In this document: one piece after another, positions 10,645 through 27,983 of the stretch
Position numbering within the stretch: the stretch's first letter is position 1
Layout of the letters: each line of letters starts with the position of its first letter
Source of the DNA: Escherichia coli
Lineage (GTDB): Bacteria; Pseudomonadota; Gammaproteobacteria; Enterobacterales; Enterobacteriaceae
Direction: 5' to 3' (one strand)
Length of the DNA: 64,000 nucleotides
NCBI RefSeq assembly: GCF_029227855.1
Contig: NZ_CP074356.1
Notes under the pieces: generated by a model
Told to the model about the DNA's origin: nothing
Databases searched by the model: none
The model's input: only the letters and a program-made list of their open reading frames with translations
Translations under genes and position numbers: made by a program

Positions 10645-12213
10645 TTAGCGTGCCGGCTGAGTAGTCGTGGAAGACTGCTCAAAGTGATAGCGACCGGTTT
10701 TCAGGCTGCTTGGGCCGAGGCGTGCAAACTTGAACATTAAGAACAATTCTGCCACCAGGAACAGGGTATACAGGCCGCAAATCAGCACCATTGAGAAGAT
10801 GAGATCGCCTGCGGTCAGTGACGAGTTCGCCACAGCTGTCGGCAGCACTTCACCGATAGCCCACGGTTGGCGGCCATATTCAGCCACAAACCAGCCCGCT
10901 TCTACAGCAATCCACGGCAGCGGAATACCGTACAGCGCGGCGCGCAGCAGCCATTTTTTCTCGCCAATGCGGTTGCGGATGACACTCCAGAAAGAGAGCG
11001 CGATGATTGCCAGCAGTAGGAAGCCACACGCCACCATGATACGGAACGCGAAGTACAGCGGCGCTACACGCGGAATGGAGTCTTTGGTTGCCTGTTGAAT
11101 CTGCGCTTCAGTCGCATCAGCCACGTTTGGCGTATAGCGTTTCAGCAGCAGACCGTAACCGAGGTCTTTCTTCATGCTATTGAACTGGTCACGAACCGCC
11201 TGGTCGGTAGAACCAGAACGCAGTTGCTCGAGCAGAGAGTACGCCTTCATCCCGTTACGAATGCGTTCTTCATGCTGCACCATCAGTTCTTTCAGGCCGA
11301 TAACTGGAGTATCCACGGAACGCGTTGCAATGATGCCCAGCGCGTAAGGGATCTGGATCGCAAATTTGTTCGTCTCCTCTTCCTGATCAGGAATGCCGAA
11401 CAGAGTAAAGGCAGCAGGCGCAGGTTGCGTTTCCCACTCGGCTTCAATAGCAGCCAGTTTGGTTTTCTGCACGTCGCCCATTTCGTAACCAGATTCATCA
11501 CCCAGAACAATAACAGACAGAACGGCAGCCATACCGAAGCTGGCAGCGATAGCAAAGGAGCGTTTAGCGAAGGCGAAGTCACGACCTTTCAGCATATACC
11601 ATGCGCTGATACCGAGGATGAACATCGCGCCAGTCACATAACCAGACGCTACAGTGTGAACGAATTTCACCTGAGCAACCGGGTTAAGCACCAGCTCGGA
11701 GAAGCTCACCATCTCCATACGCATAGTTTCAAAGTTGAAATCGGACGCGATTGGGTTTTGCATCCAGCCGTTCGCAACCAGAATCCACAGTGCGGACAGG
11801 TTTGAACCGAGCGCCACCAGCCAGGTGACACACATATGCTGAACTTTACCCAGACGATCCCAACCGAAGAAGAACAGACCTACAAAGGTGGATTCGAGGA
11901 AGAAGGCCATCAGACCTTCGATTGCCAGCGGCGCACCGAAGATATCCCCTACATAGTGGGAATAGTAAGACCAGTTAGTCCCGAACTGGAACTCCATGGT
12001 CAGACCGGTAGCCACACCCAGAGCGAAGTTGATACCAAACAACTTGCCCCAGAACTTGGTCATATCTTTATAAATCTGTTTGCCGGAAAGGACGTAGACC
12101 GTTTCCATAATGGCCAGCAGGAACGCCATACCGAGCGTCAGTGGCACAAAAAGGAAGTGGTACATCGCGGTCAAGGCAAACTGTAAGCGCGACAGTTCGA
12201 CTATATCTAACAT
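10645..12213 (-). CDS. cydA: Cytochrome bd-I ubiquinol oxidase subunit I
   Basis: Starts [28 protein letters not shown]; about 522 aa. Confidence 0.95.
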
Positions 12214-12950
12214 CATGACTCCTTGCTCATCGCATGAAGACTCCGAGAGTGAACCCCGTTAGAAAGGGTCACACGCATGCCCCAATACAAAATTATTTGC
12301 TCGCCTCTATCGTTGCCATTTCATCAAAAGAGGAAAAGACAATGATAAAAAAGTTACAAATATGTTAATGAATAAACCAAATTGATCCCGTAATTATATT
12401 ACGCCGCAAAATCCTTACAATAAACATGTTTTTATTGAGCAAATTTGCATTTTTCGACAGTGATCAATTTATAGCGAAATTGTCACGATCTCACCAATTT
12501 GATCTACGACAATTTATCGTGTTTTGCAGATTTTTTTCAAGAATTAAAAATTGATTTATATCAAAACCAACCAAATATGTTAATTGTGTATAAACCATAG
12601 ATCATTGGTGATTTTATTGTTAATTTATTGTGAAATATTTATGCAACACAATTATTACAATGAAAAGGTATAGATAAAAAACCAGTGTTTTATTTAACAG
12701 AACCGCCTTATCCACTTTTTATAATACCAATTGATTAGATTAGCCAATTTGTTGCTATTTTACATAACATATTTTTATCAAAGTTAATTGATTGTTGCGT
12801 TTATGAGCACCGGCCGTAAGCCCGTTATGTTATTGTTTCATTAGTAATAATCACTTAAATGTATCGATGAAACAGGTATGACTTAGCGGGAGTGATTGTT
12901 TCTGAGTGAACAGAGACCACTTTCGCCTGATAAATGAAAAATGAGCGATT
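12214..12950 (-). promoter_or_regulatory. Long AT-rich cydAB upstream regulatory region
   Basis: About 0.7 kb non-coding AT-rich DNA upstream of cydA; the cyd promoter is known to be complex (FNR, ArcA, H-NS). Confidence 0.6.
12551..12564. promoter_or_regulatory. Consensus FNR binding site
   Basis: TTGATTTATATCAA is a perfect TTGAT-N4-ATCAA palindrome, about 340 bp upstream of the cydA ATG. Confidence 0.6.
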
Positions 12951-13018
12951 TTTGCAAGTTAGTTTTTCTATAGCCGAGTACGCTCAGCGCCTCGCTTGAT
13001 TACAATGAGGTTGCTGCT

Positions 13019-13963
13019 ATGAGTCCTGATAATATCAGTTCTGCTGTCAATCGCTTCTCAGGTTGGCCATCTAATGATCCTCTAAAAACAGATAAAGAAT
13101 CAATGACATCACCCATGACTGTGCAGGTAATAAAGATGATTGCCGCCATCCTTGACCCACATCGGATAGTCGTTGGAATCGATACACTTTATACAACGCA
13201 GCGCGAAACATTTACCTCAGAGAGTCAACAGCTCATTGAATCAGCATTGCAAACACTTCATGTGATGAATTTAAATAACCTGGAAACAAATCTCGATGAG
13301 GAAGGTCACTATCTGGCTTTTGGATATAACGTTGACACTCCTGACAGAATAACCGTTTCTGCTTATAATGAAAAAAAGCCTGGCTGCTATGGCCAATGTC
13401 TTTTAATACAGGATGACGAAACAGACTTATTTAACCTGATAAAAGTTAAAATTTTTGAAGCCAGGCATAATTATGTCGCTCAATTGATGAGCGATCCGGA
13501 ATTTATGTTCAAATTTAGTTATAGCGCTCAACAAAATAGATTAGAACCTCATCTTCTGGTTCCCACTTATTTCCCTCTAAAAACAAACGAACCGGTTACG
13601 CAAGAGGATGTACTGTTACTTTATCGTTTCTTTAAAATGGATGGTGATTTTAATATATTAACATCAGATGAATACATGAGTATCATGACACCTCTAATGA
13701 AGTGTGAGCGTAGCATCCACGACCACAACAGGTATGTGACGGGCAAAGATACCCTTCTTCTGGACTATCCTCCTTCTGGTAACCAGATATATTTCCATAT
13801 TTTTCCTGACGAATCAGCAACACTAGTCCTTTATTTTTCAAACAATGACATTGAATGTTTCGTCTTTGAAAGAGATATTCCGAGCCAGTATCGCTTTTTC
13901 AAAATGTTTACCAATCTGGCACTGGTTATTGATCAGTTAACCGATGCCAATCAAATACTTTAA
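13019..13963 (+). CDS. Hypothetical protein, AT-rich, no recognisable family
   Basis: 314 aa ORF, soluble, no motif I can recognise; codon usage and base composition unlike flanking core genes. Confidence 0.6.
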   Translation: MSPDNISSAVNRFSGWPSNDPLKTDKESMTSPMTVQVIKMIAAILDPHRIVVGIDTLYTTQRETFTSESQQLIESALQTLHVMNLNNLETNLDEEGHYLAFGYNVDTPDRITVSAYNEKKPGCYGQCLLIQDDETDLFNLIKVKIFEARHNYVAQLMSDPEFMFKFSYSAQQNRLEPHLLVPTYFPLKTNEPVTQEDVLLLYRFFKMDGDFNILTSDEYMSIMTPLMKCERSIHDHNRYVTGKDTLLLDYPPSGNQIYFHIFPDESATLVLYFSNNDIECFVFERDIPSQYRFFKMFTNLALVIDQLTDANQIL

Positions 13964-14043
13964 TTTTTATATATTCCCTGTGGCAAATATTGCTAAACAA
14001 TGCCCGGGGATTAATTTTTATTACTCACGGAAAGATTTAAATA

Positions 14044-14466
14044 ATGATCCCATCTCAAATCTCTTTCAACACCCTTCCTGTCAATGCAACATACGCTTCA
14101 GAGACAACAGTTGACACACAAAAATTCTCTGACATCCTCTACTCAGCGGGGTGTTCCCTAAAGGATCTGGCTTATTTGAGCAGATGTCTGGCATCAATAC
14201 ATCCGACTATCGCCAAAAACATTTATGAAACAGAAAATCTCAGCGATCAAAAATTACTACATATTGATTGCCGTAGTACAAATGAAATCAAGATAAATAT
14301 CTTTTTTGGTCGACAACGAGAAGGATTAATTGAAATTAGTTCTGACACAGTCATTTTTTCGATACTGTCTTCATTGATTGACTCCACCATTTCTAAATTT
14401 CAACACCAAAACCCCGTTAACGGTTCTGTAAATCCTGACCTATTGTATGAGGATTATACTGATTAA
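14044..14466 (+). CDS. Hypothetical protein, AT-rich, no recognisable family
   Basis: 140 aa ORF 80 bp downstream of the 314 aa ORF, same strand; likely co-transcribed. Confidence 0.55.
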   Translation: MIPSQISFNTLPVNATYASETTVDTQKFSDILYSAGCSLKDLAYLSRCLASIHPTIAKNIYETENLSDQKLLHIDCRSTNEIKINIFFGRQREGLIEISSDTVIFSILSSLIDSTISKFQHQNPVNGSVNPDLLYEDYTD

Positions 14467-15013
14467 ATCCCTCCTGTCGCGAAAAATGGCCTGCGTTATT
14501 GCCAGACGTAATAAAACTTTTGATTAACGTTTCTCGTACTGGTAGCACCCTCATGTACTTTTCTTTTTTACGAAAAATCAAAAGAGCTAACAAAGGTCAT
14601 AATTCGCATGAATCATTAATTATTTGTTATTTTCAACATTATTTTTACATTAAGCAGAGATGAATTGCAGTGAAATTCGACTTAACTTTTATGAAATGCA
14701 TTTACTCATGGCTAAAGCCACGTCACAAAAATGCAAATTAGAAGTTGATCACAATTATCTCAATACATCAAATCAAGTTAATTTTAAAAATTTAACATTC
14801 ATGACATCAGTTGACATAACACACTGAATTAAAATGAGAATTTGAAAACACACTTTAAACAATCATTTCCCGAAAGACATTTTGAAAATAGATCAATTGC
14901 AACATTACGGTCAGATAAAGACACTCCTGTGATATTAAACCTGTGCCGTTATGAACGGCCATAAATACGACGTGTGTAACTTATTTTACTCTCTGTCTTA
15001 CAAAGGATTACCC

Positions 15014-15463
15014 ATGAAGAAAGCAACACTTGTGATTGGCGTTATTGGCGCGGACTGCCATGCAGTAGGCAATAAAGTTCTGGACCGCGTTTTTAGCAAC
15101 CATGGCTTCAGAGTCATTAATCTGGGCGTAATGGTCAGCCAGGACGAATATATTGATGCTGCCATTGAAACTGGTGCTGACGCGATTGTCGTCTCCTCTA
15201 TCTATGGGCATGGCGATATCGACTGTCTGGACATGCGCGAACGCTGCATCGAGCGTGGACTGGGGGACATCCTGCTCTATGTGGGCGGTAACCTGGTGGT
15301 CGGAAAACATGACTTCGCTGACGTGGAAACCAAATTCAAAGAGATGGGATTTGATCGCGTCTTTGCCCCAAGTCATGACTTAGAAGATGTTTGTCAGCTG
15401 ATGGCCCACGATATCAACCAACGTCATGACGTTGATACTCGTATTCTTGAAGAGGCAATCTGA
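15014..15463 (+). CDS. glmS: Glutamate mutase sigma (S) subunit, B12-binding
   Basis: [21 protein letters not shown]: the DxHxxG cobalamin-binding motif of methylaspartate mutase S; AGGA RBS 7 nt upstream; start chosen at internal ATG of the track ORF. Symbol follows clostridial glutamate mutase usage, not glucosamine-6-P synthase. Confidence 0.85.
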
Positions 15464-26585: not shown

Positions 26586-27983
26586 ATGCATCATCTTTCA
26601 AGGCTTGATAAAGCCTTTCTGCGCAAAGGGATCCAACTTTCCCGCGCCAACAATATTGTTTCATTATCTCGTCCATCAGGTGCCAGTGCCCGCGTACTGC
26701 TGCCGGACGAACTGCCGCTGGAAGAAAAAGCAGTAACACAACTGCTTGATTTTGCAGAAGTGAAGCTACCAGACCACCCAGGTTATGTGCGCCAGACGTG
26801 CGCGACGCCAGATTTTCATCCCGGCAATGGCGTCCCCGTTGGCGCGGTGGTGGCCTCAACGCCGGATTTAGTCATTCCCGCCGCCATCGGCACCGATATT
26901 TCTTGTGGCATGCGGCTGCTGACGACCGGATTAACACTTGAGCAAGCCGAAGCGCATAAAGACATCATCGCTCAGCGGTTAACGCAAGTGCTGCTGCAAA
27001 ATGAGCGCGATGTTCCGTTATCCGCACAGGCGTTCACTGCGCTTTTTGATGGCGGACCGGCAGATTGCGTGTCGACCTTGCCATCAGCAGGTCTCTGGAC
27101 ACGCACGAATATCCCCCGAATGGTACAAGAGATTGACTGCTGCATTGGGCTTAACGAGCATAACAGTCATTCGCGTTATGCCCCACCCGCCCTGCTGGCA
27201 ACGGACCGCGCATTACTCCGCGATCCTTGTCTGGGTACGCCGGGTTCAGGTAATCATTTTATTGAACTTCAGGTCGTTGATAGCGTGGTTGATCGCCATG
27301 TAGCCTGGCAACAAGGGCTGAAAACAGGCGATATTGTGGTGATGATCCACAGTGGATCGCGAGATGTTGGCTTTTACGTCGGAAGACGCTGGATGGATCG
27401 CGCCCGTGCTGAATGGCCCACCGGACATAAACATCCACAAAGCGGGTTATATGGTCTGGCAGGCGGACTGGCGGAGGAATATCTACAAGCGATAGGAATG
27501 GCTGCGCGTTACGCGTGGTTAAATCGCGTCACAATTGCCGAAATGGTGCGCGTATGTCTCGCCAATCTCTTTCATCAGGACAATTCGCATCTGGTGGTGG
27601 ATGTGCCGCATAACATCATCCTTCGCGAGCATGAAATGAATATTCATCGCAAAGGTGCAACACCGGCACGAGTGGGCGATCTGGCATTAATCCCCGGTTC
27701 AATGGGCGATTATTCGTGGCTTGCAGTCGGTTGCGGCAACCCGGAGTGGCTGTGGTCATGCAGTCACGGAGCAGGACGCAGCCAGCGTCGACAGGCCATG
27801 CGCTCAAGCGCGACTGAAGAGTCAACGCTGCCGTGGCAATGCGTCACATTGCGTGAAGAACGACGTCTTGAAGAAGCGCCAGCGGCTTATAAAGATATTG
27901 GTCCGGTTATCGAAGCCCAACAAGAAGCCGGATTAATTCAACCAGCGGTCAGATTTCGACCGTGGTTAACGTTTAAGGGGTAA
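26586..27983 (+). CDS. RtcB-family RNA ligase paralog (stand-alone)
   Basis: 465 aa with RtcB signature blocks DISCGMRL, GSGNHFIE, MIHSGSRDVG, HRKGATPARVGDLALIPGSMG, CSHGAGR, APAAYKDIGPV; all metal/GMP-binding Cys/His positions appear conserved. Confidence 0.8.
   Translation: MHHLSRLDKAFLRKGIQLSRANNIVSLSRPSGASARVLLPDELPLEEKAVTQLLDFAEVKLPDHPGYVRQTCATPDFHPGNGVPVGAVVASTPDLVIPAAIGTDISCGMRLLTTGLTLEQAEAHKDIIAQRLTQVLLQNERDVPLSAQAFTALFDGGPADCVSTLPSAGLWTRTNIPRMVQEIDCCIGLNEHNSHSRYAPPALLATDRALLRDPCLGTPGSGNHFIELQVVDSVVDRHVAWQQGLKTGDIVVMIHSGSRDVGFYVGRRWMDRARAEWPTGHKHPQSGLYGLAGGLAEEYLQAIGMAARYAWLNRVTIAEMVRVCLANLFHQDNSHLVVDVPHNIILREHEMNIHRKGATPARVGDLALIPGSMGDYSWLAVGCGNPEWLWSCSHGAGRSQRRQAMRSSATEESTLPWQCVTLREERRLEEAPAAYKDIGPVIEAQQEAGLIQPAVRFRPWLTFKG

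What the first reader, a model, noticed from the sequence alone, without database searches (positions are those of the whole stretch)
13019..14466. Two AT-rich ORFs of unrecognisable family at the island edge: candidate novel two-gene module
The 314 aa and 140 aa ORFs are co-oriented, 80 bp apart and visibly more AT-rich than both the core genes and the adjacent metabolic operon, which suggests a separate, possibly more recent acquisition. I cannot place either protein in any family. They sit between an H-NS-type AT-rich promoter region and a long AT-rich intergenic stretch. Large-plus-small pairs in such positions are often toxin/immunity, effector/chaperone or anti-phage modules, but that is speculation.
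Basis: inference. Interest (0 to 1): 0.65.

Follow-up and report, generated by a model that had tools for sequence, protein, structure and literature searches.

The report
Two Escherichia-only orphan genes beside cydA
These are two real, conserved protein genes found only in E. coli and its sister species E. albertii, with no recognisable relatives or known function. They look like old chromosomal residents rather than a recently acquired toxin or anti-phage cassette.

Summary
ORF1 (13019-13963, 314 aa) and ORF2 (14044-14466, 140 aa) are co-oriented, 80 bp apart and 37-38% GC, against about 53% for cydA and the glutamate mutase (mes) operon.

They are ECs0767 and ECs0766 of E. coli O157:H7 Sakai, annotated "hypothetical protein" everywhere.

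- **Real genes.** dN/dS is 0.2-0.47, there are no indels inside the ORFs although the spacers have them, and both were annotated in 59 of 60 sampled genomes.
- **True orphans.** Pfam, NCBIfam, PADLOC, PHROGs, PDB sequences, phage genomes and an exhaustive HMMER scan (ORF1 profile) of 1.84 billion proteins found only Escherichia and Shigella copies. AlphaFold models were unusable (pLDDT 43).
  - The pair sits at one chromosomal site only and has no mobile-element signature.
  - It is at least as old as the E. coli/E. albertii split, so it is not recent.
  - E. albertii keeps ORF1 intact while ORF2 is dead and the mes operon is absent from this locus.
  - An EPEC E2348/69 derivative keeps both ORFs after losing most of the mes operon.
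  - ORF1 therefore needs neither ORF2 nor the mes operon, which argues against an obligate toxin/antidote pair.

Function remains unknown. My best reading is an old, AT-rich accessory operon, probably H-NS-silenced, encoding two soluble acidic proteins. Interest is modest.

The parts
12217..12854 (.). AT-rich control region of the divergent cydAB operon. It is not specific to the ORF pair. It holds a perfect FNR box, TTGATTTATATCAA, at 12551-12564.
   Evidence: Nearly all E. coli genomes share 12217-12584 (about 80% identity in K-12-like strains), and LF82-like strains share it up to 12854 (90%), although both lack the ORFs. FNR box. GC of the whole spacer 12217-13018 is 0.332.
12855..13018 (+). 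164-bp upstream region found only in genomes that carry ORF1. It presumably holds the ORF1 promoter and 5' UTR. A Shine-Dalgarno GAGG lies at 13007-13010, 8 nt before the ATG.
   Evidence: Homology with LF82 stops at 12854. Sequence read. No consensus sigma-70 match on the + strand here. It diverges 15.3% between alleles, against 7.3% for ORF1.
13019..13963 (+). ORF1, 314 aa (36.3 kDa, pI 4.7, no hydrophobic segment). It equals ECs0767 of O157 Sakai and WP_001305591.1. It is an orphan family restricted to E. coli, Shigella and E. albertii.
   Evidence: identity; only Escherichia and Shigella relatives; dN/dS 0.37-0.47, no indels, same length at 65% aa identity; physical properties; AF2 pLDDT 43.
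13964..14043 (+). 80-nt spacer with a weak Shine-Dalgarno GGAAAG at 14029-14034, 9 nt before the ORF2 ATG.
   Evidence: Sequence read. It diverges 15.4% with 3 gap columns between alleles, so it is unconstrained.
14044..14466 (+). ORF2, 140 aa (15.7 kDa, pI 4.8). It equals ECs0766 of O157 Sakai and WP_275877313.1. It is an orphan family seen only in E. coli and Shigella. The core, residues 36-117, is nearly invariant; residues 118-134 are fast-evolving; the C-terminal YEDYTD is invariant.
   Evidence: only E. coli and Shigella; conservation pattern; dN/dS 0.2-0.4; 160-aa frameshift variants; dead remnant in E. albertii; AF2 pLDDT 42.6.
14467..15013 (.). AT-rich (GC 0.324) spacer between ORF2 and glmS. 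No terminator-like site and no Rfam element, so read-through into the mes operon is possible.
   Evidence: no terminator after ORF2; no Rfam hit at E <= 1; GC; 8.9% divergence and 8 gap columns between alleles.

Best explanation
**Shown**
- ORF1 and ORF2 are genuine protein-coding genes under moderate purifying selection.
- They are found only in Escherichia (plus Shigella), and always at the same chromosomal place, just beyond the cydAB control region. This place lies in the hypervariable cydA-sucD gap.
- They have no detectable relatives, sit on no mobile element, and carry no defence or toxin signature.
- The segment was already present in the common ancestor of E. coli and E. albertii, or was exchanged between them long ago.
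- ORF1 persists intact without ORF2 and without the mes operon, so it does not depend on either.

**Inferred**
- They are the remains of an old foreign, AT-rich insertion.
- Like other such DNA in E. coli, it is probably bound and largely silenced by H-NS.
- Transcription probably starts at a weak promoter in 12855-13018, runs through both ORFs, and may continue into glmS.
- The products are soluble, acidic, mixed alpha/beta cytoplasmic proteins with disordered polar N-termini.
- They most likely act by binding partners, as niche-specific accessory factors, rather than as a selfish toxin/antidote pair. No catalytic or DNA-binding motif is recognisable.

Their biochemical activity is not determined.
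For: **Coding and selection**
- dN/dS is 0.37-0.47 for ORF1 and 0.22-0.40 for ORF2.
- ORF1 length is exactly conserved at 65% amino-acid identity and dS 0.5.
- Indels occur only in the spacers, and the spacers diverge about twice as fast as the ORFs.
- Both genes are annotated and uninterrupted in 59 of 60 sampled genomes. This check would not detect the ORF2 frameshift variant.

**Orphan status**
- Searches found nothing.
- The ORF1 profile, run against 1.84 billion representatives, returned only fragments of ORF1 itself.
- Foldseek against AFDB50 returned only Escherichia and Shigella proteins.
- All source names are 'hypothetical' or 'uncharacterized'.

**Fixed locus, not mobile**
- 1135 of 5426 complete genomes carry the pair, with a median of one place per genome and essentially all on chromosomes.
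- No phage hits at E <= 1.
- The 'plasmid' hits are two 4.9-Mb records and a 730-kb record that I judge to be mislabelled chromosome sequence.
- No flanking repeats.

**Age and independence**
- E. albertii shows synteny over 12217-14069.
- ORF1 is intact in most listed E. albertii alleles. Within the species there are 7 synonymous against 6 non-synonymous codon differences.
- The ORF2 remnant there stops after 23 codons.
- The mes operon is absent from this locus in E. albertii.
- EPEC1, an engineered derivative of E2348/69, keeps both ORFs after ISEc13 removed most of the mes operon.

**Protein properties**
- pI 4.7-4.8 and no transmembrane segment.
- predicted secondary structure.
- polar N-termini.

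The island has its own LysR-type regulator.
Against: - There is no direct evidence of expression. No sigma-70-like promoter was predicted upstream of ORF1, and no paper mentions the genes.
- dN/dS of about 0.4 is high for a bacterial gene, so constraint is weak.
- Roughly a tenth of the distinct ORF2 protein sequences in the searched collection carry a C-terminal frameshift. Shigella dysenteriae copies are fragments.
- H-NS silencing and partner binding are inferences from composition, not tests.
- Within E. coli the pair and the mes operon each occur in 1135 genomes. A functional link to the mes operon is therefore not excluded.
Confidence: 0.6

Rival explanations
1. One or both proteins are substrates of a type III secretion system (LEE or ETT2), that is, new effectors delivered into host cells.
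For: - Both N-termini are unstructured and rich in Ser, Thr, Pro, Asn and Gln. They are the two highest of 50 genes in the window: 0.56 and 0.48 against a mean of 0.25 (sd 0.09) (disorder).
- The genes are AT-rich and genus-restricted, like many effectors.
- They are retained in LEE-positive lineages: O157:H7, O55:H7, the EPEC E2348/69 derivative and E. albertii.
Against: - No similarity to any effector or chaperone family in Pfam or NCBIfam.
- Not in a prophage or exchangeable effector locus, and not near a secretion system.
- Kept intact in many genomes from extraintestinal and environmental sources. I judge these lineages to be LEE-negative; that was not checked here.
- The ORF1 N-terminus carries a conserved motif, which secretion signals usually lack.
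- From memory, not checked here: the secretome surveys of Sakai and E2348/69 did not report these genes.
Confidence: 0.12
2. The pair is an accessory or regulatory partner of the adjacent glutamate fermentation (mes) operon and is co-transcribed with it.
For: - The pair and the mes operon each occur in 1135 of 5426 E. coli genomes.
- Same orientation, with no terminator-like site between ORF2 and glmS.
- The upstream region is the oxygen-responsive cydAB control region, which holds a perfect FNR box.
Against: - ORF1 is kept intact in E. albertii, which has no mes operon at this locus.
- Both ORFs are kept in the E2348/69 derivative after mes loss.
- mes clusters in Klebsiella, Citrobacter, Salmonella and others (PMC4682846) have no homologue of either ORF, because none exists outside Escherichia and Shigella.
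- GC is 37-38% against 53%.
- The island has its own LysR regulator.
- Co-occurrence can be explained by physical linkage alone.
Confidence: 0.12
3. A toxin/antitoxin, toxin/immunity or anti-phage two-gene defence module.
For: Large-plus-small co-oriented pair in AT-rich DNA, inside a hypervariable intergenic hotspot.
Against: - No PADLOC hit at E <= 1 and no toxin, immunity or HTH domain.
- Absent from phages and genuine plasmids.
- A single fixed locus with no mobility signature.
- ORF1 survives intact without ORF2 in E. albertii. ORF2 cannot be the antidote to an ORF1 toxin.
- Both proteins are acidic and their sequences are unrelated.
Confidence: 0.07
4. Non-functional ORFs: decaying remnants that annotators call genes.
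For: - High dN/dS, about 0.4.
- ORF2 frameshift variants.
- Decay in Shigella dysenteriae, and of ORF2 in E. albertii.
- No literature on them.
Against: - A 314-codon frame is preserved without a single indel at dS 0.5 in 62% A+T DNA.
- Spacers accumulate indels and twice the substitutions.
- dN/dS is clearly below 1 in every comparison.
- The ORF2 core, residues 36-117, is nearly invariant at the protein level while synonymous changes occur there.
Confidence: 0.05

Closest known systems
ECs0767 / ECs0766 of E. coli O157:H7 Sakai (NP_308794.1, NP_308793.1) and their RefSeq equivalents
   Same: These are the same genes, about 96-97% identical in DNA, at the same position between cydA and glmS.
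   Different: Nothing differs. They are annotated only as hypothetical proteins, and no paper in the searched library mentions them.
Taxonomically restricted (ORFan), AT-rich, H-NS-silenced islets of enterobacterial genomes
   Same: Low GC (37-38% against a 50% genome average), genus-restricted, no homologues, fast-evolving, and flanked by even more AT-rich spacers.
   Different: H-NS binding was not tested here. Unlike many such islets there is no integrase, tRNA, IS or repeat boundary. The segment is old and syntenic across two species.
Type III secretion effector genes, with or without an adjacent chaperone
   Same: Polar, disordered N-termini; AT-rich; restricted to a pathogen-containing genus; a large and a small acidic protein side by side.
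   Different: No effector or CesT/SycE-type chaperone family match. Not associated with a prophage or secretion system. Present in many genomes from extraintestinal and environmental sources, which I judge to lack the LEE. Secretion is untested.
Type II toxin-antitoxin and two-gene anti-phage systems (PADLOC catalogue)
   Same: Two co-oriented, closely spaced genes of unequal size in a variable region.
   Different: No model match, no mobility, and one partner is dispensable for keeping the other.
Methylaspartate (mes) glutamate fermentation cluster of Enterobacteriaceae (Kronen and Berg 2015, PMC4682846)
   Same: Physically adjacent, co-oriented, and co-occurring within E. coli.
   Different: Not part of the cluster in other genera. 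Different base composition. Retained where the cluster is absent or deleted.

Membership tests
Any Pfam-A / NCBIfam protein family | Significant profile-HMM match | tested here: not met
   Pfam best i-Evalues were 0.14 (ORF1) and 9.2 (ORF2). NCBIfam gave 0 families at E <= 1.
Known anti-phage defence systems (PADLOC-DB v2) | Match of at least one component to a system model | tested here: not met
   0 families at E <= 1 for both proteins.
Known anti-phage defence systems / mobile defence islands | Occurrence in varied genomic contexts, including prophages, plasmids and islands with mobility genes | tested here: not met
   Single chromosomal locus in 1135 genomes. No phage hit. The 'plasmid' hits are two 4.9-Mb records and a 730-kb record that I judge to be chromosome sequence. 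No flanking repeats.
Type II toxin-antitoxin pair | The toxin cannot be retained intact without its antidote, so the two are lost or kept together | tested here: not met
   E. albertii keeps a 314-aa intact ORF1 in most listed alleles, while ORF2 is a remnant with a stop after 23 codons.
Type II toxin-antitoxin pair | Antitoxin with a DNA-binding domain (HTH, RHH, AbrB), and a toxin of a known fold | tested here: not met
   No such domain in either protein. The structure models are too poor to test folds.
Type III secretion effector | N-terminal secretion signal: disordered, Ser/Thr/Pro-rich and poor in charge | tested here: inconclusive
   N-terminal S/T/P/N/Q fraction is 0.56 (ORF2) and 0.48 (ORF1), against a window mean of 0.25. 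This is a composition proxy only, and the ORF1 N-terminus has 24% charged residues.
Type III secretion effector | T3SS-dependent secretion or translocation | not testable with these tools
   Needs reporter-fusion experiments in wild-type and escN (or ETT2) mutant strains.
Type III secretion class I chaperone (CesT/SycE type) | Profile match or alpha-beta-beta-beta-alpha-beta-beta-alpha fold; small and acidic | tested here: inconclusive
   ORF2 is small and acidic (pI 4.8), but has no Pfam match. The AF2 model (pLDDT 42.6) predicts three helices, three strands and one helix. Foldseek against the PDB gave nothing with E < 0.2.
Methylaspartate / glutamate fermentation (mes) gene cluster | Conserved together with glmS, glmL, glmE and mal across the taxa that carry the cluster | tested here: not met
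   No homologue of either ORF outside Escherichia and Shigella, although the cluster occurs in many enterobacterial genera (PMC4682846). ORF1 is present without the cluster in E. albertii.
Taxonomically restricted orphan (ORFan) gene | Coding sequence under selection, with no detectable homologue outside a narrow clade | tested here: met
   dN/dS is below 0.5 with no indels. Exhaustive HMMER (ORF1 profile), word-indexed searches of both proteins, and fold searches found only Escherichia and Shigella.

The most novel reading that the evidence does not exclude
ORF1 and ORF2 found two new protein families confined to Escherichia. Their polar, disordered N-termini would be secretion signals, making them previously missed type III (LEE or ETT2) substrates or other host-interaction factors. 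They would have been overlooked because they are chromosomal, silenced, and outside prophage effector loci.
Probability: 0.1. Interest if true: 0.6.

Novelty: new member of a known kind. Interest (0 to 1): 0.3.

Why it matters
About a fifth of complete E. coli genomes carry these two genes. This includes O157:H7, O55:H7, EPEC E2348/69 and many extraintestinal clinical lineages. Most listed E. albertii alleles of ORF1 are intact as well. Nothing is known about the genes.

If they had a role in host interaction or gut physiology, they would be an easy target, because deletion and expression tests are simple. As it stands, they add to the large stock of lineage-restricted orphan genes.

The useful results are negative: the genes are not a defence or toxin cassette, not mobile, and not recent. 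They also show that AT-richness at an island edge does not imply recent arrival.

Tried and rejected
1. **Family assignment.** Pfam, NCBIfam, PADLOC, PHROGs and PDB sequence profiles gave nothing significant.
2. **Remote homologues.**
   - A word-indexed search of 5.8 billion clusters, for both proteins, found only Escherichia and Shigella.
It found only fragments of ORF1 itself.
   - A scan of GTDB genomes found E. albertii and two misbinned MAG contigs.
3. **Structure.** AlphaFold2 with shallow alignments gave pLDDT 43.0 and 42.6. Foldseek against the PDB and AFDB50 gave no non-self hit better than E = 2e-3 with TM about 0.1. The scattered dsRBD, HPF and longin-like matches are topology noise from poor models, and I rejected them.
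4. **ORF1 as a tandem duplication of an ORF2-like module.** Predicted secondary structure suggested this. It was rejected: hhalign probability was 0.9% and Smith-Waterman z-scores against shuffles were 1.07 or less.
5. **Mobile-element signatures.** No convincing direct or inverted repeats, no Rfam element, and no phage or genuine plasmid copies.
6. **Literature.** The locus tags ECs0766, ECs0767 and their neighbours, plus guessed Z-numbers, are absent from the searchable text. The paper on the mes cluster does not discuss these ORFs.
7. **Promoter and regulator sites.** No consensus promoter lies upstream of ORF1. FNR, CRP and ArcA-like matches fall mostly within the shared spacer upstream of ORF1, which includes the cydA control region, or at chance level.

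Full report
**What is there**

The window is E. coli chromosome. It is 100% identical over the queried 12217-14950 segment to strain JNEC-KY178, NZ_AP045174.1.

Gene order around the finding:
- On the minus strand: tol-pal, ybgC, ybgE, cydX, cydB and cydA (10645-12216).
- An 802-bp AT-rich spacer.
- ORF1 (13019-13963, 314 aa), an 80-nt gap, then ORF2 (14044-14466, 140 aa).
- A 547-bp AT-rich spacer.
- The glutamate fermentation (mes) island: glmS, glmL, glmE, methylaspartate ammonia-lyase, AtuA/DUF4387 genes, a dicarboxylate/amino acid:cation symporter and class I fumarase FumD.
- A cobA-type adenosyltransferase, a LysR regulator and an RtcB-family gene.
- Finally mngB, mngA, mngR and sucDCBA.

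In O157:H7 Sakai the genes are ECs0767 and ECs0766.

**Are they real genes?**

Yes.

- A 329-codon stop-free run in 62% A+T DNA is far beyond shuffles (mean 85, maximum 175).
- Selection was compared across E. coli alleles that differ by 3-9% in DNA, and against E. albertii at 65% amino-acid identity.
  - ORF1 keeps exactly 945 nt with no indel and dN/dS 0.37-0.47.
  - ORF2 has dN/dS 0.22-0.40.
  - For comparison, cydA is about 0 and glmL about 0.2.
- Between the window and the most divergent E. coli allele, the short spacers differ by 15% and carry indels. ORF1 differs by 7.3% and the ORF2 core by 6.5%, with no indels.
- In a spread sample of 60 of the 1135 carrier genomes, 59 annotate both genes. 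One has an IS4-family insertion.
- ORF2 is less secure than ORF1.
  - 160-aa variants arise from a frameshift near codon 128 (P0010, P0014).
  - Fragments occur in Shigella dysenteriae.

**What family?**

None.

- Pfam, NCBIfam, PADLOC, PHROGs and PDB sequence profiles gave nothing significant.
- The word-indexed search of 5.8 billion clusters returned only E. coli, Shigella and E. albertii proteins.
- A profile of ORF1 scored against every one of 1.84 billion cluster representatives returned 14 hits, all fragments of ORF1 itself.
- tblastn against 50,697 phage genomes found nothing at E <= 1.
- The three 'plasmid' hits are two 4.9-Mb records and a 730-kb record that I judge to be mislabelled chromosome sequence.
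- AlphaFold2 models were poor (pLDDT 43.0 and 42.6). Foldseek found only the family itself in AFDB50 and noise in the PDB.
- The two proteins are not detectably related to each other, and ORF1 has no supported internal repeat.
- Both are acidic (pI 4.7-4.8) and lack hydrophobic segments.
- Their N-termini are the most Ser/Thr/Pro/Asn/Gln-rich of 50 genes in the window.

**History and context**

- Within E. coli, 1135 of 5426 complete genomes carry the pair, always beside cydA. The same number carry the mes operon.
- The cydA-sucD gap is a hotspot with many states:

| Strain or species | Content of the cydA-sucD gap |
|---|---|
| K-12-like strains | mngRAB only |
| LF82 | a single TPR-protein gene |
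| O157 Sakai | the island, without mngRAB |
| EPEC1 (engineered E2348/69 derivative) | ORF1, ORF2 and glmS; ISEc13 has removed the rest of mes |

- In E. albertii, DNA homology to the window runs from cydA through ORF1 to 14069 at about 80% identity.
  - ORF1 is 314 aa and intact in most listed alleles.
  - In the type strain it carries a +1 A in an A-run.
  - ORF2 is a remnant with a stop after 23 codons.
  - The mes operon and mngRAB are absent from this locus.
- Two E. albertii ORF1 alleles differ at 7 synonymous and 6 non-synonymous codons. This suggests continued constraint, although the numbers are small.
- The segment therefore predates, or at least spans, the E. coli/E. albertii divergence. 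ORF1 does not need ORF2 or the mes operon.
- There are no flanking repeats, integrase, tRNA or Rfam element.
- Positions 12217-12854 of the 'promoter region' belong to the cydAB control region, which is shared with non-carrier strains. They include a perfect FNR box at 12551. Only 12855-13018 is specific to ORF1.

**How it most likely works**

Shown: these are real, weakly constrained, immobile, genus-restricted genes, and ORF1 does not depend on ORF2 or on the mes operon.

Inferred:
- This is an old xenogeneic AT-rich operon. It is probably H-NS-repressed, from established knowledge that H-NS binds AT-rich acquired DNA and the cydAB promoter.
- No terminator-like site was found after ORF2, so read-through into glmS is possible.
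- The products are soluble acidic proteins with disordered polar N-termini. They probably act through protein-protein contacts.

I put 0.6 on this overall picture, with the biochemical activity unknown. The rivals and my confidence in each are:

| Rival reading | Confidence |
|---|---|
| Type III secretion substrates | 0.12 |
| Accessory factors of the mes operon | 0.12 |
| Toxin/immunity or anti-phage module | 0.07 |
| Non-functional ORFs | 0.05 |

**Comparison with what is known, and novelty**

The genes themselves are already in every annotation as hypothetical proteins, and no searchable paper discusses them. They fit the known category of taxonomically restricted, AT-rich orphan genes. 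They fail the tested defining features of defence systems, TA pairs and the mes cluster. The type III effector features are inconclusive or untestable here.

I therefore rate them as a new (uncharacterised) member of a known kind, with modest interest (0.3).

Noticed in passing
window 12217-33700, with L005, L007, L008, L002 and L012: The cydA-sucD gap is a hypervariable hotspot. At least five different gene contents occur among Escherichia: mngRAB only; a TPR-protein gene; the mes island with or without mngRAB; ORF1 plus an unclassified 258-aa signal-peptide protein in E. albertii; and an ISEc13-truncated island in an EPEC E2348/69 derivative.
   Followed up: partly
window 26586-27983 (+): A 465-aa RtcB-family RNA ligase homologue (NCBIfam NF007153, E = 5.6e-60, below the curated cut-off) lies at the far end of the island. 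The O157 Sakai version of the island lacks it.
   Followed up: partly
window 12551-12564: A perfect FNR consensus box, TTGATTTATATCAA, lies in the cydAB control region, within the part shared with K-12-like strains.
   Followed up: partly
L009 (JAIJJM010000209.1) and L010 (DXKH01000067.1): Metagenome-assembled genomes labelled Collinsella sp. and Citrobacter sp. carry contigs whose ORF1 match is 99-100% identical to E. coli ORF1. This is almost certainly misbinned E. coli DNA.
   Followed up: no
PLSDB records NZ_CP141089.1, NZ_CP134663.1 (4.9 Mb) and CP088669.1 (730 kb): These records are filed as plasmids but carry this chromosomal locus, and two have chromosome-sized lengths. They appear to be mislabelled chromosomes or chromosome pieces.
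   Followed up: no
window 14044-14466; proteins P0010, P0014, P0013: A subset of E. coli carries a frameshift near ORF2 codon 128. It replaces the conserved acidic-aromatic tail (LxYEDYTD) with an unrelated extension of about 33 residues (longer in P0013), giving 160-198 aa products.
   Followed up: partly
L011 7560-7565 (E. albertii NBRC 107761): The ORF1 frameshift in the E. albertii type strain is a single extra A in an A-run of a draft assembly. It may be a sequencing error rather than a true pseudogene.
   Followed up: partly
window 14951-15463: The longest glmS ORF starts at 14951 (170 aa), but RefSeq starts glmS at 15014 (149 aa). The mechanical ORF over-extends the gene by 21 codons into the AT-rich spacer.
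   Followed up: no
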